Assembly (NCBI GenBank): GCA_964652235.1
Contig: CAZZDK010000009.1
Coordinates: 6,261 to 70,260, forward strand
Source of the DNA: an uncultured Rhodospirillaceae bacterium
GTDB taxonomy: Bacteria; Pseudomonadota; Alphaproteobacteria; UBA9219
DNA length: 64,000 bases
Direction of reading: 5' to 3'
In this document: positions 1,602 through 53,009 of the stretch, in pieces
How the letters are laid out: each line of letters begins with the position of its first letter
Position numbering within the stretch: the first letter of the stretch is position 1
Program-made: the position numbers and the translations under genes
The notes under the pieces: model-generated
The model's database searches: none
What the model was told of the DNA's origin: nothing
Seen by the model: the letters and a program-made list of their open reading frames with translations, nothing else

Positions 1602-1705
1602 CAGACAAGCGCCAGCGCCAGCGCAGAGAAAAGCCCCGCGACAAGCAAGCGTTCCGCCAAGCCCAGATTGAACATAAACGCCCCTCCCTTTCCCGCCGGA
1701 AACGG

Positions 1706-1713
1706 GTTATAAC
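1706..1713. promoter_or_regulatory. Perfect 8-bp palindrome GTTATAAC in znuA / znuCB divergent promoter; possible Zur operator core
   Basis: Seen in sequence 42 bp upstream of the znuA start. A GTTATAAC-like core is what I recall for alphaproteobacterial Zur boxes. Confidence 0.25.
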
Positions 1714-1754
1714 ACGCCTTGTTTTTCGCGCAATCTTTCCCCGGAGATTTTGTT

Positions 1755-2681
1755 ATGCGCCGCCTCGTTTTTCCCGTCGCCCTCCTTGCTTTCTGTTTTT
1801 GCCTGGTCGCGCACGTCCGCGCCGACGACAAGCCCCTGACCGTCGTCGCGGGCTTTAGTCTTCTGGCCGACATGGTTCGCGAAATTGCGGGACCGGACGT
1901 CCTTGTCGAAACGCTGGTCGGCCCGGATCAAGACGCCCACGCCTACCAGCCCACACCGGACGACATGAAAAAGCTAGCGAACGCCGACATCATCGCGATC
2001 AACGGCCTGGGCTTTGAGGGCTGGATGGACCGTCTGATATCCGCCTCGGAAACGAAAGCCAAGCTGCTTGTCGCCTCGGCGGGCGTAAAGCTTCGCGCGT
2101 TAAACGCGGACGAAGCGCGCGATCATCGTCACAGGGGGGAACACCAGGGAGACGAAATCCCTGATCCGCACGCCTGGCAAAATCTTCGCAACGCGGAAAT
2201 CTACGCCCGCAACATCGCCGGCGCGATCATCCACGCAAGGCCCTCTCTCGCCGAGGAAACCCGCGCCCGACTGAAAGATTACGTCGCGCGGATCAAGGCG
2301 CTGGACGCGCAATTGCGCGACGCGTTCGCCGCCGTGCCGCCGGAGCGCAGGAAGATCGTCACCAGCCATGACGCGTTCGGCTATTTCGGCGACGCCTATG
2401 GCGTGACGTTCCTTTCGCCCGTGGGACTCAGCACGGAAACGGAGCCGTCAGCCGCCGACATGGCGCGCCTGGTGGAAGAAATAAAGGCCGAAGGCGTCAC
2501 AAAGCTCTTCGCCGAAAACATGGCCTCGCCCCGCCTGGTGCGCCAATTGGCCCGCGAGGCCGGCGTGACGCTCGGCGGCGAGCTCTACGCCGACGCCCTT
2601 TCCCGGCCGGACGGCCCGGCCCCGACCTACCTCGACATGATGCGGCATAATGCCCATGAAATGCTTGGGGCTATGAAATAA
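1755..2681 (+). CDS. znuA: Periplasmic zinc-binding protein ZnuA (start trimmed to signal-peptide Met)
   Basis: Signal peptide MRRLVFPVALLAF, SBP family 9 fold, His/Asp/Glu-rich loop DHRHRGEHQGDEIPDPH typical of ZnuA. Confidence 0.85.
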   Translation: MRRLVFPVALLAFCFCLVAHVRADDKPLTVVAGFSLLADMVREIAGPDVLVETLVGPDQDAHAYQPTPDDMKKLANADIIAINGLGFEGWMDRLISASETKAKLLVASAGVKLRALNADEARDHRHRGEHQGDEIPDPHAWQNLRNAEIYARNIAGAIIHARPSLAEETRARLKDYVARIKALDAQLRDAFAAVPPERRKIVTSHDAFGYFGDAYGVTFLSPVGLSTETEPSAADMARLVEEIKAEGVTKLFAENMASPRLVRQLAREAGVTLGGELYADALSRPDGPAPTYLDMMRHNAHEMLGAMK

Positions 2682-2895
2682 TCTGCGCCCGCCAGCAAAG
2701 CGGCGTCTCTTTTCGTTTCACTTTTTCGTCTTTTGTTAACCAAGCCTTTGAAAATAATTAAAAGCTCCTTAACCGTCCGGGGTGTAAAAGATAGTATGCG
2801 GGGGATTGTTTGAAAGGCGCCTTCGGGTTTGAAAAAACGCAGGCCCCGGTTTAACAAGGCGCCCTGCAAGAGAAGGCGAAAGCACCGGAGATTTT

Positions 2896-5800
2896 ATGCT
2901 GTTTTCACAGGATAAAGACAAAGAGAACAAAGCCCCCAAACGTTCGCTTTGGGGCACGTTGTTCAATCCCCGCTTCGGCGACGACATCAAGCCGCTCGCC
3001 GAGACCTCTCGTATGTTCGCCAATCTCGTCGCGATGGTTTTGGCCACCAACAATCTGTTTCCCAAAGATCACCCGGCGCTGCGCGACGCGACGGTGCGCC
3101 TTTCTCTCAGCGAGGTAATCGCCATCGCCTGGAGCCGCCTGTCTTTCACGAAAGAAGGCCTGCCCCAAATCGTCCTCTTCGCCGCCGTTATCGGCTGCAT
3201 GGTCTTTTCGGCGCTGTTCATTATCACGCTTATCTTCTCGTTCTTCATCACCCCCGCCCACGCAGCGGAAAGTTCGAGTATGTTTACGCCCGCCGATGGT
3301 GGCGCTGGCGATTGGGCTCAAAACTGGCTTAATTATATTTTTTCTGGTGAGCCTTATTCCTTGAATCTGGAGGAGTATTCCAATGTGCCAAAATCATGCG
3401 TTTGGCAATCAGCCCTTGGGAAAGCCCTTGGCTTCTACAGCGGAGGGATACTTGTCCTGGCCGGAATTATTCTCCTTTATCACTTATTTTCCATGGTTGC
3501 TGAAACGGCCCATTCCGGAAAGGTTATGGGCAATGCAAACCAAATCTGGGCGCCTATACGGCTTGTCGTGGCGATCGGTCTTTTGGTCCCCATTGGAAGC
3601 GCCTCAGCTGGAACCAATTGTTCTATATCGGGCCTGAATACCGGCCAATATCTCGTTGTGCAAGTGGCTAAGTGGGGTTCTGGACTAGCAAGCAATGTGT
3701 GGAAAGTCTTCACGGAAGCCGTTGGCGAAACAACGCCCCCTAGCGATTGTCAGAAGGGGAGCGGCTCTCCTTCCTGCATACAAGTCCCGGCCTCTGTAAA
3801 GAAACCAGCTGTCGGGATTATAAGCAATTATTTTTGCGCAGCTATGTATAATCGTTATATGTCTGAGCTTGGCCTCAAAGATTATTTTATCGAAGCGGCT
3901 ACTGATGTTTCTGCTGGGGATCATTTTTTTGGTCCCAAGTCTACTTTGGGACCAAACGGTTTTAATTTTACCGCAAGAAAATTGTGCGGGGGCTATTCCC
4001 TCCCCGCTCTCCCGGCAGACAGCCTCTATAGGTCAGTTTATGAGACCCAAAGGGCCGCGCTTGGTTCTTATCTCACCAAAGCCAAAGAAAAAGTTAATAC
4101 CTATGTTACCTATTATGTACCCGGCGGTGTCGTTCCTCACGACATCAACGAAGAAATAAAGGAATTGACGGAATCCTTTCGAGAGGACGCTGATAATAGA
4201 GTCCAATCGATCCTTCCTGCCGCCGACAAGCAGGCAAAAGAAATGGATCCTATGTTATCCAACAAGCTGGTAAAAGATGGTGGCTGGCTTATGGCGGGCG
4301 CATGGTTTAACTCTATTGCGAAAAATCAAGCAGATCGCTCGGCCAGTGTACAAAATGCCATGCCCCTGGTTTTAGAAAAGAGTTTGACGACACTAGTGGA
4401 GGAAAAATTTTCTTTCTCCAGAGAAAAAAAGAAGGGAATCTCTTCTCCAGAAGAGCGCACTTTAGCCGCGGTCAGAAAATTTGAGGAAGATATAGGTTTC
4501 TTAGGAGACGCTCCTGTTAAAGCCTCAACGGAAAAAACTGCCGAACAGGGAAAAAAATCTGACGATTCTGCGTGGGATACTCTCAAGCAGATAATAAAAT
4601 CTGCTAACCCGGCTCAGGGGCTCGTTAATCTTCTGGTAAAAATGTTAACTGACTATAATATCAGCAACACAAAGGGATTGGCCCTCAGATTCAACTCTTT
4701 TGCCAATCCTTTGGCTGAGGTGGCAGCCTTTGGCCACAGTCTTGTTAATCTATCTCTTGATCTTTTCGGTTTGGCTTTGGCTGCCTATGCGGTGGGTCTT
4801 TTGCTTTCAGGCGCTGGCCTCGTCGGGGGGCTTCTGGCAACGATAGCTTTGCCCTTCTTTACGGCCGGGGCCTTTCTTGGTTTTTTGCTTCCTCTTGTCC
4901 CCTTCTTCCGTTTCTTTTTTGGTGCCCTTACTTGGATTATAGGTCTTTTTGAGGCTGTCGTTGCCGTCCCCCTTTGGGCCCTCGCTCATATGAACCCGGA
5001 AGGAGCCGGTCTTCCAGGGGGAATGGCTAAAAGTGGCTATTTCTTTATCCTTAATACTATGCTCCGCCCAGTTTTGATGATTTTCGGATTAATTGCAGGC
5101 TATCTCCTCTTTCTTGTTTCCCTGAGTTTTCTCAACACCGCGTTCTCTATGGCGGCGCAAACAACGGGGAGCTTAAATGGGTCGACGCGCAACCTAGCGA
5201 CCCTTGTTTTTACCTTCATGTATTGTGGTACGGTTTACACTCTTGGCAACCAATGCTTTAAATCCATAGGCATGTTCCCCGAACACGCTTTGCGGTGGCT
5301 CGGCACAAGCGGTCACCAAGAGAAAATGGGCGACCCGTCCATGTCCCAACAGACAATGGGCGCTGTTGGAAGTTATGTTTTGGGACAAGGGATTGGTCAA
5401 CTCGGGGGAGCTGCTAAACAACTAGGGGACAACTTAAGGGGGAAAAAGAAGGCCGCCGCCGACCAAAGAGCCAGCGCCCTCGCGGATCAACGCCGTGATG
5501 GGATCGCCCGACAACGCCATGACGATAATATGCGCGCGCAGGGCATGAGGATGGTCACCGACAATGAAGGCAACCCTGTCTTGGGCGATGGCGGTGCGCC
5601 TACATACGAACGCGACCCCAATGCCATCCAGCAGGCTTCGGGCGGGGAGCAGATTCAGTCGGGCGGTGACGGCGGCGGACAGTCCATCGCTTCCAGCAGC
5701 CCTCCCCCGCCGCCTATACCGAAGGGCTTCCAGAAATCGGAAAGCAGCGATCTCGTCATTCCCTCGACCCTCGCTACGGAACAGAAGACCGCGAAAAACG

Positions 5801-5925
5801 AGCAACCGGCCGTGAAGGAGGAAGCCGCCGCCGCAGAGGCGAAGAGAAAGAACGACGAGCAAAGCGCAGAGAAGTCGCTTGCCGATATGCGGGCCGAACA
5901 CGCGCGGAAAAGCTGGGAGACTTAA
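2896..5925 (+). CDS. Large polytopic membrane protein with Cys-containing periplasmic domain and Gly/Pro/charged C-terminal tail; candidate DotA/TraY-like (or VirB6/TrbL-like) T4SS inner-membrane component
   Basis: 1009 aa. N-terminal TM segments, a ~380-aa AT-richer central soluble domain with paired cysteines, a cluster of 5-6 TM helices (res ~600-800), then a GGDGGG / PPPPPIP / KE-rich tail. Its length is close to what I recall for Legionella DotA (~1048 aa), and T4BSS-like genes lie 15 kb away. Confidence 0.55.
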   Translation: MLFSQDKDKENKAPKRSLWGTLFNPRFGDDIKPLAETSRMFANLVAMVLATNNLFPKDHPALRDATVRLSLSEVIAIAWSRLSFTKEGLPQIVLFAAVIGCMVFSALFIITLIFSFFITPAHAAESSSMFTPADGGAGDWAQNWLNYIFSGEPYSLNLEEYSNVPKSCVWQSALGKALGFYSGGILVLAGIILLYHLFSMVAETAHSGKVMGNANQIWAPIRLVVAIGLLVPIGSASAGTNCSISGLNTGQYLVVQVAKWGSGLASNVWKVFTEAVGETTPPSDCQKGSGSPSCIQVPASVKKPAVGIISNYFCAAMYNRYMSELGLKDYFIEAATDVSAGDHFFGPKSTLGPNGFNFTARKLCGGYSLPALPADSLYRSVYETQRAALGSYLTKAKEKVNTYVTYYVPGGVVPHDINEEIKELTESFREDADNRVQSILPAADKQAKEMDPMLSNKLVKDGGWLMAGAWFNSIAKNQADRSASVQNAMPLVLEKSLTTLVEEKFSFSREKKKGISSPEERTLAAVRKFEEDIGFLGDAPVKASTEKTAEQGKKSDDSAWDTLKQIIKSANPAQGLVNLLVKMLTDYNISNTKGLALRFNSFANPLAEVAAFGHSLVNLSLDLFGLALAAYAVGLLLSGAGLVGGLLATIALPFFTAGAFLGFLLPLVPFFRFFFGALTWIIGLFEAVVAVPLWALAHMNPEGAGLPGGMAKSGYFFILNTMLRPVLMIFGLIAGYLLFLVSLSFLNTAFSMAAQTTGSLNGSTRNLATLVFTFMYCGTVYTLGNQCFKSIGMFPEHALRWLGTSGHQEKMGDPSMSQQTMGAVGSYVLGQGIGQLGGAAKQLGDNLRGKKKAAADQRASALADQRRDGIARQRHDDNMRAQGMRMVTDNEGNPVLGDGGAPTYERDPNAIQQASGGEQIQSGGDGGGQSIASSSPPPPPIPKGFQKSESSDLVIPSTLATEQKTAKNEQPAVKEEAAAAEAKRKNDEQSAEKSLADMRAEHARKSWET

Positions 5926-6267
5926 AAGCCTAATCGACGCTTTGTTTTGCCCTCTTAAGAAGGTTGATTCTCCATGCCCCTTCCCCGCAAATCCCGCTTT
6001 TTCCTGCCTCTTAAACTCTGGCTGGCTTCGATAACGGGGGAAAGCGCCGCGCCAACCCAAACGGGCGCAGGTGGCGGCCCCGCCGCCGCGCAGAAAAACC
6101 AAAGCGCCCAGGCCGCCGCAGGCGCCAGGCCGCGCGTTCATGTTCCCAAGGCCACGCTTGAAAGCGTTCCTCGCCCGACGGAAGATTTTTTCCGCAAGGG
6201 CGGCATCTGACCCCTTTCCCCCTCTTCCAAAACAAGGCATGGTGGCCGCCTGAAAAGGTGGATAATT

Positions 6268-7326
6268 ATGCTCGTTTTAGGTTTGGAAAGCAGCTGCGAC
6301 GAAACGGCGGTGGGGATCGTAGAGGATTCCGCCGAGCTTGAATCCTCTTCCGGGGGACGCGTTTTGGCGAACGTCGTGGCCGCGCAGCTTGAGGAGCATC
6401 GGCCCTATGGCGGCGTGGTGCCGGAAATCGCGGCGCGCGCGCATCTCGATAAAATCGACGCGCTGGTGCGCGAAGCGCTTGCCCAGGCGAAAGTGGCCCT
6501 GCGGGACCTCGATGGCATCGCGGCGACCTGCGGCCCCGGCCTAATCGGCGGCGTGATGGTCGGCGCGATGACGGGCAAGGCTCTCTCCGCCGTCACGGGC
6601 AAACCCTTTATCGCCGTCAATCACCTCGAAGCTCACGCCCTCACCGCGCGACTTTCGCATGATGTTTCTTTTCCTTTTCTGCTGTTGCTTGTCTCCGGCG
6701 GTCATTGTCAGCTTGTCTGGGTGGAGGGCGTAGGCCGCTATCGCAAACTGGGAGGCACGCTCGACGACGCGGTAGGTGAATGTTTCGACAAAAGCGCCAA
6801 GCTTTTAGGTTTGGGCTATCCGGGCGGTCCGCTGATCGAGCGTGCCGCCGCGCAGGGAAACCCGAAGGCCTTCGCTCTGCCGCGCCCCATGATGGGCCGC
6901 GCAGGCTGCGATTTTTCTTTCTCCGGCCTGAAAACCGCCGTCCGGCAAGCCGTCTCTGAAGCGCCAAAGCCCCTAACCGAAACCTTCGTCGCCGATATGG
7001 CGGCTTCGTTACAGGAAGCCGTGGCCGCGATTTTAACGGACCGCACGCGCCAGGCGCTTGCGATTCTAAGGGAAGAAAGAGCAGAACCGACCGCGCTGGT
7101 CGTGGGCGGCGGCGTGGCGGCCAATCGAGCGATCCGCGAAGCCTTGACGGCGCTGGGCGCGGAATGGGGCGCGCGGTTTCTGGCCCCGCCGCCGGGACTT
7201 TGCACCGATAACGGCGTCATGATAGCCTGGGCCGGACTTGAAAGATTGAGACTCGGCCTTCAAGACGGTTTGGCTTTCGCGGCCAGACCGAGATGGCCGC
7301 TTGAAGGATTGAAGGAAACCGGATGA
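6268..7326 (+). CDS. tsaD: tRNA N6-threonylcarbamoyladenosine synthase TsaD
   Basis: N-terminal [12 protein letters not shown] and HLEAHAL metal-binding motif. Length 352 aa. Confidence 0.9.
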
Positions 7327-19013: not shown

Positions 19014-20048
19014 AATTTTTTTGTCCTCGATCAACTTTTCATAAAGCGCGATCATCTGCTCGGTTACGGCTTTGCGCGTATAGCCTTTCTGATAGGATTC
19101 GCGACCGCCTGCCACCAGCCGTTCGCGCAAAGCCTTGTCGCCGACGGCGCGGGAAAGCGCCTGCGCCAGCGACTTTTCATCGTCGACGGGGACAAGCAGC
19201 CCGTCTTTTTCGTGCGTCACGTGGCCCGCCGGGCCCGCGCTGGCGGCAGCGACAAGAGGAACGCCCGCCGCCCAAGCCTCCAAAATTACTGTCCCGAACG
19301 GCTCATAACGCGAAGGCAAAACGCACACATCCGCCGCGCGCAAAAGCGCGCCGCGATCCGTCCGCCAACCCAGAAACCGCACCCGCGATTCGAGACCGAG
19401 CGTTCGGGTCAGTTCTTCAAGTTCGCCGCGCAAAGGGCCTTCGCCCGCGAGCCAGACATAAAGGTCCGGCAAAAGTTTCGCGGCCTTCAATAGCGTGTCC
19501 AATCCCTTTTTGGGGTGAAGCCGCGAAAGAGCCAACGCGACAGGGGCGTCCGCAGGGGTGTCCAAGCTCGCCCTGTCCACAGGCGATTCGTCCCGCACAT
19601 CGGGAAAAGTCGGAACGTAAAACGCTTTTTCTTCCGCGACGCCGTTTTTGACCATATGCGCCACAATGTCGCGCGTCACGCCGACGAAGTGCGAACAATG
19701 TTTGAACTTGCGCGGATCGTAATAGCCGCCGAACCAACCGAGAACCGGCCCCTTTTTCCAGGCCGGGACAAGGCTGGCGGCGCGGCGCATCCAGCAATGG
19801 ATCAGGTCCGGGCTTTCCCGCTCGATCAGTTTTTTAAGCCGCCATCTTTGCAAAGGCCGGAAAGGAAAGGACAGAACTTCCGGCGCCGTCCGCACCCCCG
19901 ACGCAAGAAGCTCGCCATAGCGCGGCGCGGCGGCGGGATACACCGCGCATTGGTCGATCCCCGCCGCATGGAGGCTGAGCATCATGTCGGTGGCGTAGGT
20001 CTCCGCCCCGCCGAGGCCCTTGCCCGCCATGATGTGAAGAACGCGCAT
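18987..20048 (-). CDS. Glycosyltransferase family 4 (GT-B, WaaG/LpcC-like)
   Basis: EPFGTVILEAWAAGVPLVA (E-x7-E motif), N-terminal GKGLGGAE. Its start overlaps the stop of the upstream coupling-protein gene (TAATG). Confidence 0.8.
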   Translation of the reverse strand: MRVLHIMAGKGLGGAETYATDMMLSLHAAGIDQCAVYPAAAPRYGELLASGVRTAPEVLSFPFRPLQRWRLKKLIERESPDLIHCWMRRAASLVPAWKKGPVLGWFGGYYDPRKFKHCSHFVGVTRDIVAHMVKNGVAEEKAFYVPTFPDVRDESPVDRASLDTPADAPVALALSRLHPKKGLDTLLKAAKLLPDLYVWLAGEGPLRGELEELTRTLGLESRVRFLGWRTDRGALLRAADVCVLPSRYEPFGTVILEAWAAGVPLVAAASAGPAGHVTHEKDGLLVPVDDEKSLAQALSRAVGDKALRERLVAGGRESYQKGYTRKAVTEQMIALYEKLIEDKKIARRLRAYE

Positions 20049-22405
20049 TACTCCGCCGCTTTTTCTTTCCCGCCGAGGCCCTTATTCAGCTTGCCCGCCA
20101 TGTTTTCGACCAGGGCAGCCATGTCGGCGGGAAGCTGGAGCTTGGTCACATCCGGCCCTTCTTCTTCCTCGCGCACGGACGGCACGACGCGCGTATCGAG
20201 ATCGGACGGAACGAAGCCGCGCGGCGCGGACGTCTTGCGCTCGTAAAGCGGCGGCACGTCCAAATCTTCGAAACTGGCGCGCTTTTCTTCCGGTTCTTTG
20301 TCTTCTTCCCACGAAACGGCAAGCGGCTTGGCCACTTTGCCTGTCGCCGCCGTCTGGGACGGCGCTGCCGTTTCGGTTCGCTGGCGCGGTTTTTCTGCCG
20401 GAAGCTTCGCGGCGGCGGCGACCAGCGCCATGCCCTCTTCCATGGAAGAAAGGCCGCCGCCCCGAACAAGCGCCGCCATTTCCATCAGCGCCGAGACCTC
20501 GCCCGAAGGCGCCGCCTCGCCCGCCGCAGCCGCCGTCCAGTCGGGGTCCTTGAGCCGGGCCGCGACTTCGCTGATCGCCCGCTCGCGCGAAACGGTAAGC
20601 GTCGTCGTGGCGGGCACCGGCAAAAGCCGATGGACGCGCAGGGCCGAAACCTTGTCCGGCGCCGCATAGAACATCCGCACGCGCGCGATGAACTCGGCAA
20701 AGAGCATATGCACCTCGCCTTCGCGCTGACCGCGCAACTGGTCGTAGTGCGCGCGAACGCGAACCTGCGTGCCGCCCGTTCCCAGATTGTCGTAGAAAGG
20801 CTTGTTCATGAACAAGCTGGAAATCGTGTCGGTCTTGGCCGCCATGCCGTTCGATTCATAAACGAAGTTATCGCCGACGTGTTCCGAGAAGAATTTCTTC
20901 GTATCGCCCGGGTCCTCGAGCTTGCCGAAAATTTTCAGGTTGCAGTTGGCCAGGATGGATTGAGCCTCCTGCTTGACGCGCTTTTCCATCGACGGCAAGT
21001 CCTGCGCCGCGAAAATAAGAGAGAAGCCGAGCGAACGGGCCTGCGCGGCCATGACGGCCATGCCCTGCGCCGTGTAGTAACCGACTTCGTCAAACACCGT
21101 CATGAAGGAGGAGGAAGATCGCGTCTGTTTGCTGCCGATGGCGTTTTCCCAGCTTCCCTCCACCGTGTTGCCGAGCGTCGCGCCCATCATGCCTTTCAGG
21201 CTGGCGGCCACGATTTTGCCGAGGTTGGCGGCTTCGTCGCCGGATTTCTCCAGCGAGGGGATCAGGCCGACCAGAATACGCCGGTTCAAAACCGTGTCCA
21301 AAACGTCCACGTCCGCAAGCTGCGCCTTGAAGATGTAGCCGTATTCGTCGCCGAGCGATTGCAGCGAGCGCGTGAACTGCATGGACAGATAACCGTGCTG
21401 TTGCCGCGCGACTTGCAGATCGTACATGGGCTGATCGGGCGCGGGCGGACGCTCGTTGCCTTCGTCGTCGAAGGCCGCGTCGATATAGCCCGGCAGCGTG
21501 TTCAGGTAGCCTTGCAACGCCTTGATGACGCGTTCCGGCAGCGTCGCGTCGCGCGACAGGCGAATGATGGCAGGAAGCTCGATATATTCGCGCAAAACGC
21601 CGACGTCGAGCAAAAGGCCGCCCTTGTCGCGCTTCCAGGTCAAGGCGGGCATGAGGGCGCCGAGCAAAGCGACGGCGCGTTCTTTCCACATCGCGTTGTC
21701 GCCGCCCGCGTCAGGCATCAGGTTCGTCACCATGTTGGTGAGATAGGAAGCCGAGCCGTTCGAAAACGGGTTCATCGTGTTCGAGACCGCGCCGTTGTCC
21801 GAGTTCGCAGTCATGTAGTTCAAAACCAAAAGGTCATCGTCGCGCCCGAAGCGGCGCGCCAGCGCGAATAGAGACGCCCACAGATCCGTGTCGGCCTTGC
21901 CGTCCACATAGACGAAGCCCGACCCCCAGGTCAGGGCATTGGTCACAATGGCTTTCAGTCCTTCCGTTTTGCCGGACCCTGTGGTTCCGATAAAAAGAAT
22001 ATGCGTGCGGGCGTCGGTGTTGGTCAGCCAAATCTCGCGCCCCATGTCGGGGTGGCCCGCCTCGTCCAGATTGCCCAGATACAAAATGCCCTCGGACTTG
22101 CCCGGCCCCGTCCTGCCCGGCGCTGGGTTATGGGGGTCCGGCAACGGCGCCGCGTATTTCGGCATCTTGAACGGCAGCTCGATGGGCTGCTTGAAAAACC
22201 AACGAGCATAAAGAACGAGCAGAAACAAAACCAGATCGGAAAGAAGCCCGGCTTCCGGCAGGGCGAAAACCAAGACTCCGACGCCGAGCGTGGCGGCGCA
22301 GAAAGGTTCCGTCTGGCTCCAGAAATCCTTGATGCGCACGGAGGCCGGCCGCGCGTCGCGCAGCAAGTCGCGAAGATTCAGCGCGTGTTTCTTAAGAATG
22401 GTCAT
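20048..22405 (-). CDS. dotL: Type IV secretion coupling ATPase, DotL/IcmO (TrbC of IncI)-like
   Basis: 785 aa. Two N-terminal TM helices, Walker A FIGTTGSGKTEGLK, long acidic/Ala-rich C-terminal extension. The size is about what I recall for DotL (~783 aa). It is adjacent to DotM-like and DotO-like genes. Strong SD AAGGAGGG. Confidence 0.6.
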   Translation of the reverse strand: MTILKKHALNLRDLLRDARPASVRIKDFWSQTEPFCAATLGVGVLVFALPEAGLLSDLVLFLLVLYARWFFKQPIELPFKMPKYAAPLPDPHNPAPGRTGPGKSEGILYLGNLDEAGHPDMGREIWLTNTDARTHILFIGTTGSGKTEGLKAIVTNALTWGSGFVYVDGKADTDLWASLFALARRFGRDDDLLVLNYMTANSDNGAVSNTMNPFSNGSASYLTNMVTNLMPDAGGDNAMWKERAVALLGALMPALTWKRDKGGLLLDVGVLREYIELPAIIRLSRDATLPERVIKALQGYLNTLPGYIDAAFDDEGNERPPAPDQPMYDLQVARQQHGYLSMQFTRSLQSLGDEYGYIFKAQLADVDVLDTVLNRRILVGLIPSLEKSGDEAANLGKIVAASLKGMMGATLGNTVEGSWENAIGSKQTRSSSSFMTVFDEVGYYTAQGMAVMAAQARSLGFSLIFAAQDLPSMEKRVKQEAQSILANCNLKIFGKLEDPGDTKKFFSEHVGDNFVYESNGMAAKTDTISSLFMNKPFYDNLGTGGTQVRVRAHYDQLRGQREGEVHMLFAEFIARVRMFYAAPDKVSALRVHRLLPVPATTTLTVSRERAISEVAARLKDPDWTAAAAGEAAPSGEVSALMEMAALVRGGGLSSMEEGMALVAAAAKLPAEKPRQRTETAAPSQTAATGKVAKPLAVSWEEDKEPEEKRASFEDLDVPPLYERKTSAPRGFVPSDLDTRVVPSVREEEEGPDVTKLQLPADMAALVENMAGKLNKGLGGKEKAAE

Positions 22406-22454: not shown

Positions 22455-23012
22455 TCATTCCGCTGGCGGCTCCAGCACGTCGTCGGCGGACATCGGCACG
22501 CCGTTTCGAATTTCCTTCGGCGCCAAGGGCGTCGGAACGACGGGCGCAGACGACAAACTTCCCGCTTTCGTAGGAATCGTCGAGGCGCTCTTTTGCGCCT
22601 GCGCGCGCAAAAGCGCCAATTGCTCTTCCGTAATCGGCGCGGAAAAGAACGTCATAACGAAAAACCCGATAAAAAGGACGCCCAAAAACATCAGGAGGCG
22701 CCGCCACCAATTGTTCTTAAAAGGCGACGCGTCCCGCAAAAGGGTTTTTTGAGTCGCCGCATAGGCCTCCTCGGCCTGGCGCCTTTCGTCGAAATGGGCG
22801 ATGGGCGTAAAGACGCCTTGCGGCAGCAAAAGGCCCAACTCCCACTCGCCGTCCTTTTCGCGCAACGTCACGGCGTGGCTGCCCATCTTTTCGAGATCAA
22901 ACTGCCAGACGACAGGGGGGGTGCTCTCCTTGTAAGACGCCACAAGACAGGGCGTCTGATTCCGCCGCACCAACTTGGCCTGAACGCCCGCTTTTCCCGA
23001 AAAACAAAACAT
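22455..23012 (-). CDS. Hypothetical single-TM membrane protein encoded between the DotM-like and DotL-like genes
   Basis: 185 aa. SD AGGGAG 8 nt upstream. One central TM (WWRRLLMFLGVLFIGFFVMTFF). No recognisable motif. Confidence 0.5.
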   Translation of the reverse strand: MFCFSGKAGVQAKLVRRNQTPCLVASYKESTPPVVWQFDLEKMGSHAVTLREKDGEWELGLLLPQGVFTPIAHFDERRQAEEAYAATQKTLLRDASPFKNNWWRRLLMFLGVLFIGFFVMTFFSAPITEEQLALLRAQAQKSASTIPTKAGSLSSAPVVPTPLAPKEIRNGVPMSADDVLEPPAE

Positions 23013-23028: not shown

Positions 23029-24261
23029 CTATGACGCACGCACGTCCTTGCCCGCTCCCGCGAACGGCGGAAGCTCCGGCTGATTGGCCGCAAAATACTG
23101 GTTAAGCGCCACGATCGCCGTCTCAAGCCTTGGAATGGGCAAGGCCTTTCCCGCCGCTTCTTCGGCCATATAATGCGCCATCGCGCCCGCGCCTTCCATG
23201 TGAAAGGAGCGACGCCCCAGATTGTTCAGCGCGTACCACAAAGTCCGATCCGTGCCGCGCAGCCACAAAAACTGAGCGGACGCCAGCACGCCGCCCATAA
23301 ATCTGGCCCAACGCAAAACGCCAAGAAGGGCGGTCGTCCGGTAAGCGTGCTTGGCCGCTATCTCAAGCGCCTTGCCGCCGATTTCCGGGTCTTTGAGAAT
23401 TTTCTGAATCTCGGCCATGATCTCCGCCGTTGGGCGAAAACCCCCTGTTGCCGTCCAGCAGGTGGAAAGCTTGCCCAAAAACTCGTCGCTTTCTTCGCGT
23501 TTTTGCACGCCTTTAAGCGCAAACGCCGCCAGAAGGCCAAGCACATAGGGGGGCAGTCCTTTATAACCGGCCCAGCGCGGACCCAGTTGCGCGAGAAAAG
23601 CCTGTCGCGTGCGGTCCTTGTTGGGAACGCCCCCCTCGACGCCGATTTGATGGGCGGAAACCCACTCTTCGGGCGAAAGAGCTTCGGCGAACAAAGGCAG
23701 CTTTTCCGGGATCAACGAACCGGGTATCCGCGCGCTGTGCTTGGACGGGTTGAAATCCACGATCGGCTGAATCACGGGCCATATCTTCGCCTGGACCTTG
23801 ATAAAGCTTTCCAGATTGTAGCGCGTTTTGAAAGCGTCCTTCTTGAAAACGAAAAGAGCCTTATAAATGACATAGACGGCCACACCCAGAACGATCCACC
23901 GCCAATAATCCATAATATGCCTACTCACGGCGCCGACGCTGGTAGCCGTCAGCGTGTAATATTGCATGGCTTCCGCCGCGGGAAGAGGTCTCAACGTGTT
24001 AACGCCAAAGCAGTTTGCAGCGGCCAGAACCGTGCTATCCGCCGGAACGGTTTTCTCAAGCGGCACGATCCAAAGCCAATGAAAACAAGCCCGCGCTTTT
24101 TGGTCGAAGGGCATAAGCGGCACGATTTCGGCAAGCCGAAGGTACCGCATAAACTCAAGCAGTTGCGGCTCGAAGAAAAACCAAATCAGCCATCCGATCA
24201 AAAGGATAGCGCAGATAAAGATCAGCAGAATCCATGTCGGATCGTCGGTGTTGCCTGCCAT
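23029..24261 (-). CDS. dotM: Inner-membrane T4SS coupling-complex protein, DotM/IcmP (TrbA of IncI)-like
   Basis: 410 aa. N-terminal TM helices followed by ~250-aa alpha-helical cytoplasmic domain, the size and topology I recall for DotM. Position immediately upstream of the DotL-like gene. Confidence 0.5.
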   Translation of the reverse strand: MAGNTDDPTWILLIFICAILLIGWLIWFFFEPQLLEFMRYLRLAEIVPLMPFDQKARACFHWLWIVPLEKTVPADSTVLAAANCFGVNTLRPLPAAEAMQYYTLTATSVGAVSRHIMDYWRWIVLGVAVYVIYKALFVFKKDAFKTRYNLESFIKVQAKIWPVIQPIVDFNPSKHSARIPGSLIPEKLPLFAEALSPEEWVSAHQIGVEGGVPNKDRTRQAFLAQLGPRWAGYKGLPPYVLGLLAAFALKGVQKREESDEFLGKLSTCWTATGGFRPTAEIMAEIQKILKDPEIGGKALEIAAKHAYRTTALLGVLRWARFMGGVLASAQFLWLRGTDRTLWYALNNLGRRSFHMEGAGAMAHYMAEEAAGKALPIPRLETAIVALNQYFAANQPELPPFAGAGKDVRAS

Positions 24262-24390: not shown

Positions 24391-27381
24391 TTAACTTTTT
24401 TCCTCGACATCCCGCTGCAAGGACCGGGCATAGGCGATCATTTCTTTGGCCAGCTCGGAAATGACGACGCTGGTCGCGCCGGATTCGATCTCGCCGCGCT
24501 CGGTTCTTTGGACCACCCGGCGACGAATTTCCTGCCGCGCCGAACCGGCCGGGAAGAAATGGGCCAGAATGGACCGCCCTCTGGCAGCGCCAAGTTCTTC
24601 ATAAAGCTTGGTTCTGAGGTCCACATCTTCGGTGGAGGTCGATAAAGCCCAAAGCTCCACGGGGCCGAGCGTGTTAACCAAATGCTGCTCATATCGGCCT
24701 TCATTGGTGCTGAGAAGCAGCAAAACGGGCGCGCCGCTGGGCCGGGGGCCTGTCAAACGGTACCGCATGACCCACCGGGCGGTGTCGGACAGGCCGAAAC
24801 GATCCGCCGTTTCGCTGATGGCCCGGTCGGAAACCGCCGTGCCGCAAATCCACACGCCCGTCGCCAGGTCGATCATGTCGGCGCTGAAATCGTCCAAAAG
24901 CTGCGAGGCCAGAACGATCTGCACGCCCCATTTGCGGCCTTCGCGCACGTCGCGCACGACCTGCGCCCGAACGGCGTTCGTCTTGCTCGTGCGGTGAAAC
25001 TCGTCAAAGCACAAACGCTTCGGGCTTTCCCGAATGTCCTTAAGCCGCCCCTCGTGATAGGGCCTGTATTTTTCGGGCATATGGCGCAGGGAATCCTGCC
25101 CCAGCCACCAGGAGCGGACCAAAACGTGCCGCGCAAGCATATACATGATGGCCGTCTGGCGGTCCGCGATGTCGTCGCCCTGGGGCGCGACGTCCTGCAA
25201 ATCGACGGCGGCGATGTGCGTCTCGCCGATATCGAAGCGCGTCACCGAGGCGAGGATGGGGAACTCGCGCACGGCGGAAGCCAACATACGCTCAAAGGCA
25301 TGAATGACGGACTCGGCCGAAGCGCCGATGGCCGTTTCTTCGAGAAGAGCCCGTATCTGGGGCCTGCGTGCCGCCGTCACCGCGTCCACGAGCGTGGGCA
25401 CCGCGTGGCGCTGGGCCAGCGTGCATTCATGATAGGCGCCCGCATCGTACAGCGCGTCCACGACGTCCCACCAATAAGGATCGACGGGCAGGTGGATGTT
25501 GTAGGTCTTGATCGCCTCATCCACGTCCGGCTCGATGTTCTGCAGATAGGGCCGCGGCTCGGTGTTCGCGCCGCTGTCGTCGCGCCAACGGTACATCTCG
25601 TCCACGCAAAGGCCGACGAGCTGCGTCATGCCGTCATAGGGAACCTTCTGCCCCGGCGAGGTGCAAAGAAGGGTCAAAAGCTCCGTGAGATAGGAGCGCT
25701 CTTCAGGCAAGGGGTAGCGGCAGCCGAGCTGCGTATCGAACGGATTGACGGCATATTCAGGGGTCATGCGCAATTTGAAATGCATGGCCTCGTGGCGACG
25801 GTTAAGAGGCAATGCATCGCGGATCAGAGAGATCAATCCGGACGAAGACGGCCCAATGTCGAGAATGGCGATATAGGGCAGGCGCGCGTTGCCCGCCGAA
25901 AGAACGGTGCCGAGATTGAGGGCGTTCATCAAGACGGATTTGCCCGCGCCCGGCTGCGCGAAAATAAGATCAAACCACGTCGTCGTAAGCGAACTGCCCA
26001 TCTGATAGGGCCAGATGCGCCCGTCGGCGGTGCGGAAAATAACGGGGCCTTCCGCGAAAGGCGAAGAGGCCCTTTGCCAGGGCATAAGCTTCATGACCTC
26101 CTGAAACGGCGCGATGGCAGGCGGCGCGGTTGACGAGCAAGCGATGCCGAGCGAAGCGGACAAAGCGGTCTCGAGAGGATCGCCTCCTGCCGAAGTCGCC
26201 TGGCAATAGCCCCAGGCCTCGACCGCCTGCGTCAGGGCGGCCAAACGCGTTTCCATCAGCCTGCGATCCCGCGCCGGGGCGTAGGTCGAAAGCGAAATGC
26301 GCAGGCGCACGACCGGTTCGCTTTGCGCCAGTTCCTGCAGCGCTTTGAGCGATTCCCGTATCTGGCGATTCACTTCGTTCGTGAAAGCCAAAATCGCCGC
26401 CGTAAAGGCACGGAACATCGCACCCTGCGCGCCCGCGCTTTCGATCAGGAACGAAACGTGGAAAGGAATGTCGCCGTCGATGAGCCGCGCGAGAAGCTGC
26501 GGAAAGGGCGTCGGATCGGCGGGCGCCAGCGTCACGTCCACGCCGCCCCAAAGCAAATCGCCGATCCGCACGATGGTCGGCGAAACCGTTTCCGCATCCG
26601 CCACGCAAAGCTGCCTGCGCAGCGGCGGCCAGAGAACTTCCGAAAGATCCGTTTTCCGGTGCGGCGCGCGCGGCAAAAGGGGATCGCCGGGAACGTTCGC
26701 GCGCCAATCTTTGTTGGCAAGATAGGGGTAGAGGCTGGCCCGCACCGCGGCAAGCGCGCTGTGCACCGATTCCAAAGAAGCCCGGATCGCGACTTCTTCC
26801 AACGCCGCCGTCACCGCCGCGACGAAGCTCTTGTGCCGCGTGCGTAGAGGCTCCAGCGTCAGTTTGGGATTCTGGGCGTCGCTCGCGACGACCCACTTCT
26901 GTTCGCCGCGCAAACGGATCGCTTCCTTCAGGTCGCTTTTGTTCACGGCGCCGGGGCGCGTCCAGAGAACGAAGTAAACCTCTTCGTGCGCCAGATAGCG
27001 GGTCAGGTGTCGCTTTCGTTCTTCAAGCAAATCGCCCAGATCGAGGTCGAGAGCCCGCGCGGCGCTTCGGTTCGATTGCATGGCCCTCGCAAGGTCTTCG
27101 CCCGCCATGGCGGGGTCGCGCATGAAATAAACCTGCATGGCGTAGCCGGGACGGTCGAACCGCGCGCCGAGCTTCATCGTCGCCTGGTCCACGATCCAGC
27201 GATATTCCGCGTCACCGATGATTTGCCGTGCGCCGTGAATGCGAATAAAGGACACCATCGAACCGTCCGCGGCCACAAGCGTCGTATCGTCTTCGGCGGT
27301 CTCCAGCTGAATAAAGGATTCGATGGGCTGCTTGGCGGCCAGAAGAATGGCGGCCAGAACGTTGTCCAGAAGGTTCAGCAT
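24391..27381 (-). CDS. dotO: VirB4-family T4SS ATPase, DotO/IcmB (TraU of IncI)-like; the 27381 start (MLNLLDN) is preferred to the ORF-track start at 27522
   Basis: ~1000 aa, Walker A FAQPGAGKSVLMNAL mid-protein. The size matches what I recall for DotO (~1009 aa) rather than the shorter VirB4/TrbE (~800-850 aa). Adjacent to DotM/DotL-like genes. Confidence 0.55.
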   Translation of the reverse strand: MLNLLDNVLAAILLAAKQPIESFIQLETAEDDTTLVAADGSMVSFIRIHGARQIIGDAEYRWIVDQATMKLGARFDRPGYAMQVYFMRDPAMAGEDLARAMQSNRSAARALDLDLGDLLEERKRHLTRYLAHEEVYFVLWTRPGAVNKSDLKEAIRLRGEQKWVVASDAQNPKLTLEPLRTRHKSFVAAVTAALEEVAIRASLESVHSALAAVRASLYPYLANKDWRANVPGDPLLPRAPHRKTDLSEVLWPPLRRQLCVADAETVSPTIVRIGDLLWGGVDVTLAPADPTPFPQLLARLIDGDIPFHVSFLIESAGAQGAMFRAFTAAILAFTNEVNRQIRESLKALQELAQSEPVVRLRISLSTYAPARDRRLMETRLAALTQAVEAWGYCQATSAGGDPLETALSASLGIACSSTAPPAIAPFQEVMKLMPWQRASSPFAEGPVIFRTADGRIWPYQMGSSLTTTWFDLIFAQPGAGKSVLMNALNLGTVLSAGNARLPYIAILDIGPSSSGLISLIRDALPLNRRHEAMHFKLRMTPEYAVNPFDTQLGCRYPLPEERSYLTELLTLLCTSPGQKVPYDGMTQLVGLCVDEMYRWRDDSGANTEPRPYLQNIEPDVDEAIKTYNIHLPVDPYWWDVVDALYDAGAYHECTLAQRHAVPTLVDAVTAARRPQIRALLEETAIGASAESVIHAFERMLASAVREFPILASVTRFDIGETHIAAVDLQDVAPQGDDIADRQTAIMYMLARHVLVRSWWLGQDSLRHMPEKYRPYHEGRLKDIRESPKRLCFDEFHRTSKTNAVRAQVVRDVREGRKWGVQIVLASQLLDDFSADMIDLATGVWICGTAVSDRAISETADRFGLSDTARWVMRYRLTGPRPSGAPVLLLLSTNEGRYEQHLVNTLGPVELWALSTSTEDVDLRTKLYEELGAARGRSILAHFFPAGSARQEIRRRVVQRTERGEIESGATSVVISELAKEMIAYARSLQRDVEEKS

Positions 27382-27596
27382 GGACGAAAGACCTCCCGGC
27401 GCGAAGGGGGAGACGCAGGGACGGAGGAGAGACCGATTGGAGCCAAACGCCGAAACGCCATGCGGGACACATACCTTGCAAACGGACAACGACAAACGTC
27501 TGCCCAAGGAAGCCTCGGACATCCTTGCTGTTTTAACGGCAAGATTATGAACAATTAACTAACGCAAAAGATTTAGAAAAGCCCTTTCGTTTTCCC

Positions 27597-53008: not shown

Positions 53009-53009
53009 G

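What the first reader, a model, noticed from the sequence alone, without database searches (positions are those of the whole stretch)
2896..5925. 1009-aa polytopic membrane protein with AT-rich, cysteine-paired periplasmic domain: candidate DotA/TraY-like T4BSS component located apart from the ATPase operon
The architecture has four parts: N-terminal TMs, a ~380-aa soluble Cys-containing domain, a cluster of 5-6 TMs, and a Gly/Pro/Lys/Glu-rich tail. The length is close to what I remember for DotA (~1048 aa); large VirB6/TrbL proteins have a similar layout. The central third (about 3300-5300) is visibly lower in GC than the surrounding genome. That argues for a separate or more recent horizontal origin than the ameliorated T4BSS-like operon at 20-27 kb.
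Basis: partly seen in the sequence, partly recalled or inferred. Interest (0 to 1): 0.6.

Follow-up and report, generated by a model that had tools for sequence, protein, structure and literature searches.

The report
Mosaic DotA channel gene, type IVB secretion
This gene encodes the DotA channel subunit of a Legionella-type (type IVB) secretion machine in an uncultured alphaproteobacterium; the gene has sat at this chromosomal spot for a long time, but its AT-richer middle appears to be swapped between lineages while its unusual long leader stays with the genome.

Summary
Window 2896-5925(+) is an intact 1009-aa ORF with the four-part architecture described and a real GC trough.

The family call is right. 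NCBIfam DotA_TraY scores 266.6 bits against a cutoff of 100. A clade profile hits Legionella DotA (PDB 9ngy) at E 7e-56. An AlphaFold model (pLDDT 77.8) has that chain as its only significant Foldseek hit. IcmB/DotO, DotM and DotL lie 14-21.5 kb downstream among housekeeping genes.

The "recently inserted gene" inference is not supported.
- dotA follows znuA in five related contigs, whose neighbours are mostly 52-86% identical.
- No tRNA or terminal repeats flank it.
- The orthologues show the same GC3 trough.

A modified version of the horizontal-origin idea does hold: the gene is mosaic.
- GC3 steps from 0.73 to 0.47 at codon 122, an invariant AxA leader-cleavage site, and back at codon 842.
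- Residues 1-122 are closest to the syntenic genomes.
- The core is closest to alleles from other genomic contexts (maximum chi-square p 0.0005-0.0085).
- Two contigs from one metagenome share near-identical flanks but carry very different dotA interiors.

DotA is also the most divergent of 17 genes shared with a syntenic contig (35% against 86% for IcmB).

The family is known. The variant features are the conserved N-terminal extension of about 100 residues and the shorter periplasmic domain.

The parts
2896..5925 (+). dotA: a 1009-aa DotA/TraY-family protein, the inner-membrane channel subunit of a T4BSS
   Evidence: ORF. TIGR04346 at 266.6 bits against a cutoff of 100. PDB DotA 9ngy at E 2.6e-15 with the single sequence and 7.3e-56 with the clade profile. 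9ngy_FP1 is the only significant Foldseek hit, E 1.8e-11.
2896..3264 (+). Leader module, codons 1-123. It has a conserved cytoplasmic N-terminal extension (aa 1-85), hydrophobic TM0 (86-117) and an invariant AxA site (A121, A123). Its GC3 is 0.67-0.83, which is genome-like.
   Evidence: TM0 and AHA|A align with the Legionella DotA leader ...ALALA|ENG. The extension occurs only at the N-terminus of DotA-length proteins, with 153 hits in 1.84 billion representatives.
3400..3600 (+). TM1 and TM2 (aa 169-235) with a short cytoplasmic loop. This is the best-conserved segment of the protein.
   Evidence: Aligns to Legionella DotA residues 56-120. It is 63-83% identical among orthologues yet has low GC3. 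Helices in the AF2 model.
3601..4707 (+). Periplasmic extended domain (aa 236-604) carrying Cys 242, 285, 294, 314 and 364. It is the fastest-evolving folded part and has the lowest GC3 (0.39-0.47).
   Evidence: It is partly alignable to the Legionella extended domain, including the GW..AG motif at aa 463-467. Confident helical/beta model.
4708..5298 (+). Hydrophobic helix cluster (aa 605-801), equivalent to HH1-HH5, which line the pentameric chamber in Legionella DotA
   Evidence: Aligns to Legionella DotA 682-843 and from residue 910. Helices at 605-634, 640-697, 709-756, 765-787 and 790-801 in the model. Architecture taken from Yue et al. 2025.
5299..5925 (+). C-terminal tail (aa 802-1009): a long helix, then a disordered G/P/S/Q/E/K-rich segment, then a terminal helix. 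GC3 returns to genome level after codon 842.
   Evidence: Only 16-26% identical among orthologues.
24391..27381 (-). icmB/dotO, the VirB4-type T4BSS ATPase. It is 996 aa from the start used in the public record; the longest ORF extends to 27522.
   Evidence: Exact match to P0121. Homologues are 70-89% identical and are named IcmB by NCBI and JGI. Walker A motif GAGKS seen in the sequence.
23029..24261 (-). dotM/icmP, a coupling-complex subunit
   Evidence: NF033890 at E 5.1e-50, 170.6 bits, below the equivalog cutoff of 230. The orthologue carries PF23127 DotM_C.
22455..23012 (-). 185-aa membrane-anchored protein of unknown family between dotM and dotL
   Evidence: No family or PDB hit. A 49.5% identical orthologue sits in the same position in L049.
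20048..22405 (-). dotL/icmO (TrbC-type), the type IV coupling protein
   Evidence: NF041447 TrbC at E 2.4e-105, with weaker TraD and VirD4-like hits. 79.8% identical orthologue in L049.
1719..2681 (+). aztC/znuA-type metal-binding protein, the conserved upstream neighbour of dotA
   Evidence: NF040870 at E 1.1e-84. Adjacent to dotA in L007, L008, L012, L047 and L048.
6268..7326 (+). tsaD, the downstream neighbour of dotA
   Evidence: TIGR03723 at 405 bits. Follows dotA in L006, L007 and L008, but not in L047.

Best explanation
The gene encodes the DotA subunit of a chromosomal, vertically inherited Dot/Icm-like type IVB secretion system in an uncultured alphaproteobacterium.

How it most likely works, by homology with Legionella DotA:
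- The hydrophobic TM0 segment targets the protein to the inner membrane.
- Signal peptidase probably cuts at the invariant AHA|A site after residue 123.
- TM1 and TM2 anchor the mature protein.
- The disulfide-stabilised periplasmic domain and five long hydrophobic helices assemble, probably as a pentamer, into the central inner-membrane and periplasmic chamber. This is the VirB6-equivalent position.
- Substrates handed over by DotL-DotM and powered by IcmB/DotO pass through that chamber.

Two features set this clade apart. First, a conserved cytoplasmic extension of about 100 residues sits in front of the ancestral signal peptide. Second, the periplasmic domain is shorter, about 370 residues against about 530.

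The GC trough does not mark a recent gene insertion. The locus is old. The core, codons about 123-842, evolves much faster than its neighbours and appears to be exchanged between lineages by homologous replacement, as reported for Legionella dotA. It keeps an AT-shifted third-position composition, while the leader module and the far C-terminus track the host genome.

Shown: family membership, fold, architecture, neighbourhood, conserved position, the GC3 steps, discordant similarity along the gene, and one allelic replacement in relatives.

Inferred: cleavage, pentamer formation, channel function, protein rather than DNA substrates, and the cause of the AT shift.
For: Family and fold:
- TIGR04346 at 266.6 bits against a cutoff of 100, covering aa 172-803.
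- phmmer against PDB DotA 9ngy gives E 2.6e-15. A profile of 62 relatives gives E 7.3e-56 and aligns leader to leader, TM1/2, part of the extended domain and the HH helices.
- The AF2 model has pLDDT 77.8 and pTM 0.69. Its only significant Foldseek PDB hit is 9ngy_FP1, E 1.8e-11, probability 1.0, 927 aligned columns.
- The Legionella architecture and the DotA-IcmX protochannel come from Yue et al. 2025.

System context: icmB, dotM and dotL are in the window. They sit among origin-proximal core genes: gyrB, gatB, the suf genes, parAB and mnmEG.

Old locus:
- znuCA|dotA adjacency occurs in L007, L008, L012, L047 and L048. dotA|tsaD-gpsA occurs in L006 to L008.
- No tRNA or flanking repeats.

Fast evolution: against the syntenic contig JAIVPI010000088.1, DotA is 34.6% identical. 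The comparison values are IcmB 85.7, GatB 86.4, GyrB 85.2, DotL 79.8, DotM 68.0, ZnuC 74.3 and ZnuA 58.5. DotA is the lowest of 17 shared genes.

Mosaicism:
- GC3 steps at codons 122 and 842.
- aa 1-122 is closest to the syntenic genomes (61-66%). aa 123-240 is closest to non-syntenic alleles: P0003 at 71%, and L003, P0005 and P0010 at 64%. Syntenic L008 and L047 reach only 52% there.
- The maximum chi-square breakpoint falls at aa 118-133 in 6 of 9 triplets and at aa 88/89 in a seventh. Permutation p is 0.0005-0.0085 for those seven.
- All cores are about equally distant from the outgroups (41-46%), so lineage rate differences do not explain the pattern.
- In an exhaustive search, the extension's best match is P0027 from the syntenic genome (65%). 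P0027 ranks only 27th (35%) for the whole protein.
- L006 and L008 come from one metagenome. They are 99.987% identical over 7,850 bp downstream and 96-99% identical over 300 nt upstream. Codons about 10-915 of dotA are only 36-86% identical, and both alleles are intact ORFs.

Precedent: Legionella DotA averages 60% identity between species, shows recombination in 20 species, and gives a tree that disagrees with the core genome (PMC6761968).
Against: - The score against the Legionella/Coxiella-type equivalog model NF033886 is 179 bits against a cutoff of 500. This is a separate subfamily, and function is extrapolated across about 15% structural-alignment identity.
- The global TM-score to 9ngy is only 0.35-0.41, rmsd 17 A. 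That may reflect a monomer model compared with an in-situ pentamer conformation, but the extended domains could differ substantially.
- No IcmX-like partner was found in the 64 kb window. Only one unknown ORF was tested against PDB sequences.
- The same GC3 trough occurs in at least 8 related lineages. No allele more than 45% identical exists in 5.8 billion proteins. The AT shift may therefore be maintained in place rather than imported.
- The similarity ranks of the second half of the periplasmic domain (aa 401-600) do correlate with those of the extension, rho 0.65. The mosaic pattern is not a single clean block.
- The L006/L008 pair comes from a metagenome assembly, so mis-joining at shared k-mers cannot be excluded.
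Confidence: 0.85

Rival explanations
1. One reading: the whole gene is a separate, more recent horizontal insertion between znuA and tsaD. On this view it arrived later than the GC-ameliorated icmB-dotM-dotL cluster.
For: GC3 of dotA is 0.541, against 0.754 for icmB, 0.667 for dotM and 0.784 for dotL. dotA lies 14-21.5 kb away from those genes. In the closest full-length relatives (P0002 and P0004) dotA sits in a different context, Aminotran_4|dotA|M16.
Against: - znuA|dotA adjacency is conserved in five contigs whose flanking genes are mostly 52-86% identical to the window's. The insertion therefore predates those splits.
- The first 122 and last 167 codons have genome-typical GC3.
- No tRNA or flanking direct repeats were found, and no integrase or relaxase among the ORFs scanned.
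- Orthologues show the same trough.
Confidence: 0.04
2. The GC3 trough and the high divergence arise in place, without horizontal exchange. Possible causes are weak selection on codon usage, low expression or reduced GC-biased gene conversion in a fast-evolving gene. Another is selection for AT-rich DNA, for example as a target of a MucR/H-NS-like silencer. On this view the discordant similarities are noise or uneven rates.
For: The trough recurs in at least 8 related lineages. It is absent from low-GC relatives, where dotA matches its flanks. No close donor allele exists in the databases; the best is 45% identical. The most divergent domain has the lowest GC3.
Against: - The step from GC3 0.83 to 0.43 occurs within 30 codons.
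- The highly conserved TM1/TM2 segment has low GC3, while the poorly conserved tail has high GC3. GC3 therefore does not track constraint.
- An independent protein-similarity breakpoint falls at the same place, p down to 0.0005.
- The relative-rate control is flat.
- L006 and L008 show an actual allele replacement.
Confidence: 0.25
3. It is TraY of an integrated IncI-like conjugative element that moves DNA. On this view it is not part of an effector-translocating Dot/Icm-type system.
For: The family model covers both DotA and TraY. The DotL homologue scores best against the TrbC conjugation model. 2,070 plasmids carry detectable TraY relatives.
Against: - Plasmid TraY proteins match only 15-45% of the query at 23-35% identity, and none covers 80% or more of the query.
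- T4BSS genes are scattered among core genes close to the parAB-gidAB region, and the order is conserved across genomes.
- No relaxase or integrase was found among the ORFs scanned in the window.
- IcmB is 70-89% identical across more than 100 MAG-derived clusters, which fits vertical inheritance.
Confidence: 0.08
4. It is an unrelated polytopic transporter or permease, or a true VirB6/TrbL-family protein.
For: Weak Foldseek matches to MATE and PPase folds (E 0.05-0.5) and to TrwI/VirB6 8rt9_F (E 1.8, TMt 0.28).
Against: No Pfam hit at E up to 10, including TrbL. All such fold matches have probability 0.25 or lower, against 1.00 for DotA. Sequence matches to DotA are strong.
Confidence: 0.01

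Closest known systems
Legionella pneumophila DotA (1048 aa; PDB 9ngy/9nh0, the DotA-IcmX protochannel of the Dot/Icm T4BSS)
   Same: - Same order of parts: cleavable leader with an AxA site, TM1, TM2, a large Cys-containing periplasmic domain, five hydrophobic helices and a C-terminal tail.
- It is the only significant structural match.
- The gene is encoded away from the main ATPase/coupling cluster.
- It is the fast-evolving, recombining component of the system.
   Different: - About 15% identity in the structural alignment, and below the NF033886 equivalog cutoff, 179 against 500 bits.
- The leader is 123 aa with a conserved cytoplasmic domain, against 19 aa in Legionella.
- The periplasmic domain is about 370 aa against about 530, with at most 3 possible disulfides against 5.
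- The tail is longer and low in complexity.
- There are no adjacent icmV, icmW or icmX genes. dotA sits alone between znuA and tsaD.
TraY of IncI-type conjugative plasmids and the 'DotA/TraY family protein' of alphaproteobacterial plasmids (for example Bosea, Methylorubrum, Gluconobacter)
   Same: Same NCBIfam family, TIGR04346. The TM1/TM2 and hydrophobic-helix segments are conserved.
   Different: Only 23-35% identical over 15-45% of the query. These proteins lack the N-terminal extension, since matches begin at aa 120-195. They sit on plasmids, 85% of which are predicted to be conjugative. The window gene is chromosomal and syntenic across genomes.
VirB6/TrwI/TrbL, the inner-membrane stalk base of type IVA systems
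   Same: It occupies the equivalent position in the machine. It is a pentameric polytopic protein beneath a VirB5 or IcmX pentamer, according to Yue et al. 2025.
   Different: No detectable sequence homology, with no Pfam TrbL hit. Fold similarity is not significant, E 1.8. This is an analogue and not the same family.

Membership tests
DotA/TraY family (NCBIfam TIGR04346) | HMM score above the curated cutoff | tested here: met
   266.6 bits against a cutoff of 100, E 4.9e-79, aa 172-803 matching profile positions 24-656 of 656.
DotA/TraY family | DotA fold and order of parts: leader, TM1, TM2, periplasmic extended domain, five hydrophobic helices | tested here: met
   Foldseek gives 9ngy_FP1 at E 1.8e-11, probability 1.0, the only hit with E <= 0.001. 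The profile alignment covers the leader, TM1/2, part of the extended domain and the HH helices. The global TM-score is only 0.35-0.41.
DotA/TraY family | Encoded together with other T4BSS components | tested here: met
   IcmB/DotO, DotM and DotL are in the same 64 kb. The same arrangement occurs in JAIVPI010000088.1.
T4SS DotA equivalog (NCBIfam NF033886, Legionella/Coxiella type) | HMM score above the equivalog cutoff | tested here: not met
   179 bits against a cutoff of 500. This is a distinct alphaproteobacterial subfamily. The nearest public relative is 45% identical or less.
Dot/Icm DotA (functional definition) | Forms a pentameric protochannel with an IcmX partner | not testable with these tools
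   No IcmX-like gene was recognised in the window. One unknown ORF was tested against PDB sequences and no IcmX family appeared in the family scans. The rest of the genome is unavailable, and no multimer prediction was possible.
Dot/Icm DotA (functional definition) | Leader peptide cleaved by signal peptidase | tested here: inconclusive
   A121 and A123 (AxA) are invariant in 62/62 relatives and align with the Legionella leader end ALALA|ENG. However, about 85 cytoplasmic residues precede the hydrophobic segment, so cleavage is inferred only.
Dot/Icm DotA (functional definition) | Periplasmic domain stabilised by disulfides | tested here: inconclusive
   C314 and C364 are invariant. Periplasmic Cys counts are even in 55/62 relatives.
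Conjugative IncI-type TraY | Part of a mobile element with a relaxase and plasmid or ICE boundaries | tested here: not met
   No relaxase or integrase among the ORFs scanned. No tRNA or flanking repeats. Chromosomal core-gene context is conserved between genomes. The test is limited to the 64 kb window.
VirB6/TrbL (Pfam PF04610) | Match to the TrbL/VirB6 model or fold | tested here: not met
   No Pfam hit at E up to 10. TrwI 8rt9_F scores E 1.8, probability 0.13.
Recently acquired genomic island | Variable presence at the site, insertion scars, and atypical composition across the whole insert | tested here: not met
   The znuA|dotA junction is conserved in five contigs. No scars were found. 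Atypical composition is confined to codons 123-842.

The most novel reading that the evidence does not exclude
In a large, uncultured alphaproteobacterial clade, the chromosomal Dot/Icm-like machine has a two-module DotA.
- The first module is a 123-residue 'long leader'. Its conserved cytoplasmic domain is released at an invariant AxA site and stays behind as a separate membrane-anchored subunit. Distant relatives of this module exist as standalone 121-aa proteins.
- The second module is the channel-forming core. It behaves as a recombining, AT-shifted cassette exchanged between lineages, presumably because it is exposed to eukaryotic or bacterial targets.

If so, these widespread environmental bacteria would be host-interacting, and DotA would be their diversifying contact component.
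Probability: 0.25. Interest if true: 0.65.

Novelty: new variant of a known kind. Interest (0 to 1): 0.45.

Why it matters
DotA was recently shown to be the central gate of the Legionella effector-injection machine. Effector-type T4BSS are discussed in the papers read here almost entirely for Legionellales and related Gammaproteobacteria.

This window shows that a distinct DotA subfamily belongs to a vertically inherited chromosomal T4BSS. Its IcmB has more than 100 relatives at 70-89% identity in MAGs labelled Alphaproteobacteria.

Three features are worth a specialist's attention:
- A conserved cytoplasmic extension in front of the signal peptide. It is found nowhere else except as rare standalone small proteins.
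- The same fast, recombining evolution of DotA that in Legionella is read as host exposure.
- A sharp intragenic composition boundary that coincides with the leader cleavage site.

Together they offer a natural dissection of which parts of DotA are tied to the machine and which to the target. They also flag this clade as probably interacting with other cells.

For genome scanning, this is a cautionary case. A GC trough inside a gene at a conserved locus signalled allelic mosaicism and not island insertion.

Tried and rejected
- Pfam on the full protein gave no hit at E up to 10. Only NCBIfam recognises the family.
- The genome-contig scan returned a single distant locus, L001.
- An exact look-up of the window protein's contig found no record, and the cluster look-up gave no accession or organism. 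The organism remains 'uncultured alphaproteobacterium', judged from the labels on relatives.
- Repeat, promoter, terminator, tRNA and Rfam scans around dotA gave nothing pointing to mobility or RNA elements.
- The IcmX search was limited. ORF 32880-33959 has no PDB match, and none of the scanned window proteins hit an IcmX or other Dot/Icm model apart from DotL, DotM and IcmB.
- The L003 against L004 comparison was uninformative for dotA. Those loci were retrieved by exact DotA identity, so dotA is identical by construction, and the differences cluster in pilus genes.
- The literature searches found no description of this alphaproteobacterial T4BSS clade in the held library. That is not proof that none exists.
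- The idea that lineage rate differences explain the crossover in similarity was rejected after the outgroup control.
- The idea that low GC3 simply tracks weak protein constraint was rejected. TM1/TM2 is conserved with low GC3, and the tail is unconserved with high GC3.

Full report
**1. Observation**

Window 2896..5925(+) is an uninterrupted ATG-initiated ORF of 1009 aa. The start MLFSQ... is conserved in orthologues.

Hydropathy, the AlphaFold model and charge counts give the following layout:
- A polar N-terminal segment, aa 1-85.
- A hydrophobic helix TM0 at 86-117, ending in AHA|A at 121-123.
- TM1 at 169-207 and TM2 at 215-235.
- A 369-aa soluble domain at 236-604 with five cysteines, plus C168 upstream.
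- A block of long hydrophobic helices at 605-801.
- A tail at 802-1009 rich in A, G, Q, S, E, K, D and P.

The GC trough is real.
- Gene GC is 0.514 and GC3 is 0.541, against a window GC of 0.586 and a mean GC3 of 0.693 for 37 other long ORFs.
- The seven interior 100-codon blocks have GC3 of 0.39-0.55. Among 150 such blocks from other genes (mean 0.71, sd 0.071), only two are at or below 0.56.
- A two-change-point fit places the steps at codons 122 and 842, with GC3 of 0.728 outside and 0.465 inside, LLR 29.6.

**2. What it is**

Pfam finds nothing. NCBIfam TIGR04346 (DotA/TraY family) scores 266.6 bits against a cutoff of 100, over aa 172-803. The Legionella-type equivalog NF033886 reaches only 179 of the 500 bits required.

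The single sequence matches PDB DotA (9ngy, 1048 aa) at E 2.6e-15. A profile of 62 relatives matches it at E 7.3e-56. That profile aligns leader with leader (...sAhA|a against ...ALALA|ENG), TM1/TM2, part of the periplasmic domain and the hydrophobic helices.

An AlphaFold2 model built on that alignment has pLDDT 77.8 and pTM 0.69. Its only significant Foldseek PDB hit is 9ngy_FP1, at E 1.8e-11, probability 1.00 and 927 aligned columns. The TM-score is 0.35-0.41. MATE, PPase and VirB6 folds are not significant.

According to Yue et al. 2025, Legionella DotA has a signal peptide, TM1 and TM2, an extended periplasmic domain with five disulfides, and five hydrophobic helices. It forms a pentameric inner-membrane chamber that, together with IcmX, makes the closed protochannel of the machine. 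The window protein has the same order of parts.

**3. Context**

The '20-27 kb operon' on the minus strand consists of four genes:
- icmB/dotO. It matches the 996-aa public protein P0121 exactly, and its relatives are 70-89% identical and named IcmB.
- dotM/icmP.
- A 185-aa unknown gene.
- dotL/TrbC-type coupling protein.

A GT4 glycosyltransferase gene follows and overlaps the dotL gene by one base.

Everything else in the window is housekeeping: znuCA-like transporter genes, tsaD, gpsA, gatB, gyrB, yifB, pepN, the suf operon, parAB, rsmG, mnmG and mnmE. This is origin-proximal chromosome and not a plasmid or an island. No tRNA, Rfam family or flanking repeats occur.

**4. Testing the horizontal-origin inference**

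(a) Position. dotA directly follows the znuA-like gene in L007, L008, L012, L047 and L048. It is followed by tsaD-gpsA in L006, L007 and L008.

NCBI contig JAIVPI010000088.1 (L047 and L049) reproduces most of the window's layout: znuBCA|dotA ... gyrB ... yggS-gatB ... GT4-dotL-x-dotM-icmB-yifB. The locus is therefore old.

In the relatives with the highest full-length identity (P0002 and P0004, 44-45%), dotA also sits alone, but in another context.

(b) Composition. The trough recurs in relatives. dotA GC3 minus the mean GC3 of flanking ORFs is:
- -0.19 in L001
- -0.175 in L002
- -0.08 in L003
- -0.11 in L006
- -0.17 in L008
- -0.22 in L009
- -0.09 in L011

In L047, dotA GC3 is 0.51 against 0.62-0.72 for five neighbouring genes. 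More distant or lower-GC relatives show no dip.

(c) Rate. Against the syntenic contig, DotA is 34.6% identical, the lowest of 17 shared genes. The comparison values are:
- IcmB 85.7
- GatB 86.4
- GyrB 85.2
- YifB 83.0
- DotL 79.8
- ZnuC 74.3
- DotM 68.0
- ZnuA 58.5

Within DotA, identity to orthologues varies by region:
- Extension (aa 1-90): 46-62%.
- TM1/TM2: 63-83%.
- Periplasmic domain: 23-39%.
- Hydrophobic helices: 44-57%.
- Tail: 16-26%.

GC3 does not follow constraint. TM1/TM2 is conserved with low GC3, while the tail is unconserved with high GC3.

(d) Mosaicism. Five lines of evidence point the same way.
- Similarity switches along the gene. For aa 1-122 the closest sequences are those of the syntenic genomes: L008 66%, L047 64%, L006 62% and L012 61%. 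For aa 123-240 the closest are P0003 at 71%, and L003, P0005 and P0010 at 64%, with L008 and L047 at only 52%. The rank correlation between the two regions is -0.22.
- Maximum chi-square tests on informative sites put the breakpoint at aa 118-133 in 6 of 9 triplets and at aa 88/89 in a seventh. Permutation p is 0.0005-0.0085 for those seven. This coincides with the GC3 step and with the AxA site.
- An outgroup control shows all cores equally distant, at 41-46%. That argues against lineage rate differences as the cause.
- An exhaustive search of 1.84 billion representatives with aa 1-105 returns P0027, from the syntenic genome, as the best match at 65%. P0027 ranks only 27th (35%) for the full protein.
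- L006 and L008 come from the same metagenome. They are 99.987% identical over 7,850 bp downstream of dotA codon about 915, and 96-99% identical over the 300 nt that span the start codon. Between those points they are 36-86% identical, and both alleles are intact ORFs of 1003 and 966 aa. This is the signature of an allelic replacement.

Legionella shows the same behaviour. DotA averages 60% identity between species, recombination is detected in 20 species, and its phylogeny disagrees with the core genome. The authors interpret this as host exposure (PMC6761968).

**5.

The family assignment and 'apart from the ATPase operon' are correct. 'Recent or separate acquisition of the gene' is contradicted by synteny.

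The idea that the AT-shifted part has its own horizontal history is supported in a modified form: exchange of the core at a fixed locus.

Whether the AT shift is imported or maintained in place is not settled. It recurs in many lineages and no close donor is known, which is why the in-place rival keeps about 0.25.

**6. Clade-specific features**

The N-terminal extension (aa 1 to about 100) is present in 56 of 61 aligned relatives, at a median 52% identity.
- It lies outside the TIGR04346 match, which begins at aa 172.
- It is absent from Legionella DotA, whose leader is 19 aa.
- It is absent from plasmid TraY, where matches start at aa 120-195.
- It is found only at the N-terminus of DotA-length proteins.
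- Distant standalone relatives of about 121 aa exist. P0331 sits in an SLT-DUF1491-x-leuA context with no dotA nearby.

A121 and A123 are invariant. Cleavage that releases a membrane-anchored 123-aa fragment is therefore plausible but untested.

The periplasmic domain is about 160 residues shorter than in Legionella. It has two invariant cysteines, and Cys counts are mostly even across relatives.

**7. Mechanism**

Shown: family membership, fold, topology-compatible architecture, and co-occurrence with IcmB, DotM and DotL.

Inferred from Legionella:
- Sec targeting through TM0.
- Cleavage at the AxA site.
- Pentameric chamber formation by the helices at 605-801.
- A periplasmic domain that docks an IcmX-like partner.
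- Gating of substrates delivered by DotL-DotM and powered by IcmB.

Protein rather than DNA substrates are inferred from three observations: the vertically conserved chromosomal arrangement, the absence of a relaxase among the ORFs scanned in the window, and the distance from plasmid TraY.

**8. Novelty and score**

The family is known, and automatic pipelines already label relatives 'DotA/TraY family protein'. The new elements are the long conserved leader, the shorter extended domain and the documented intragenic mosaic in an alphaproteobacterial chromosomal T4BSS.

I rate this as a new variant of a known kind, with interest 0.45.

Noticed in passing
window 18987-20048 (-): A GT4-family glycosyltransferase gene overlaps the dotL gene by one base at 20048. 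It is also adjacent to dotL in JAIVPI010000088.1 (L049 17330-18367, 73% identical). This looks like a conserved glycosyltransferase coupled to the T4BSS coupling-protein operon.
   Followed up: partly
window 22455-23012 (-): A 185-aa protein with a C-terminal hydrophobic helix lies between dotM and dotL. It has no Pfam, NCBIfam or PDB match. A 49.5% identical orthologue occupies the same position in L049. It may be a clade-specific T4BSS accessory subunit, and it does not resemble DotN.
   Followed up: partly
L051 6001-6366 and L052 2072-2437 (protein P0331): A standalone 121-aa membrane protein is distantly related to the DotA N-terminal extension (E 1.5e-4, 27% identity). It sits in an SLT-DUF1491-[121 aa]-leuA context with no dotA nearby. 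This suggests the extension derives from, or is related to, an independent small-protein family.
   Followed up: partly
L006 nt 300-3018 against L008 nt 3910-6518: Two contigs from metagenome Ga0209467 have near-identical flanks, with one mismatch in 7.85 kb downstream. They carry highly divergent but intact dotA alleles of 1003 and 966 aa.
   Followed up: yes
window 24391-27522 (-) and its homologues: IcmB/DotO gets no NCBIfam or Pfam hit better than E 0.01. Even so, it has more than 100 relatives at 70-89% identity in MAGs labelled Alphaproteobacteria, Rhodospirillaceae and 'Bdellovibrionales'. This is a large uncultured clade with a chromosomal Dot/Icm-like system that current profile libraries barely cover.
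   Followed up: partly
window 50440-56944 (-): parB, parA, rsmG (gidB), mnmG (gidA) and mnmE lie together. The window is therefore probably close to the chromosomal replication origin. The T4BSS genes are embedded in this core region.
   Followed up: no
window 9011-9421 (+) and 9492-11372 (+): A solitary flgC-like rod-protein gene is followed by a 626-aa protein with a staphylococcal-nuclease domain. Both are conserved downstream of tsaD-gpsA in L006, L007 and L008.
   Followed up: no
window 57297-59342 (+): A 681-aa polytopic membrane protein has no Pfam or NCBIfam hit. It has an N-terminal multi-TM region and a C-terminal soluble domain.
   Followed up: no
window 459-818 (+): This 119-aa ORF is a reverse-strand shadow of the znuB (ABC-3 permease) gene that runs off the window start. 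Its 'conservation' in relatives reflects znuB on the opposite strand.
   Followed up: partly
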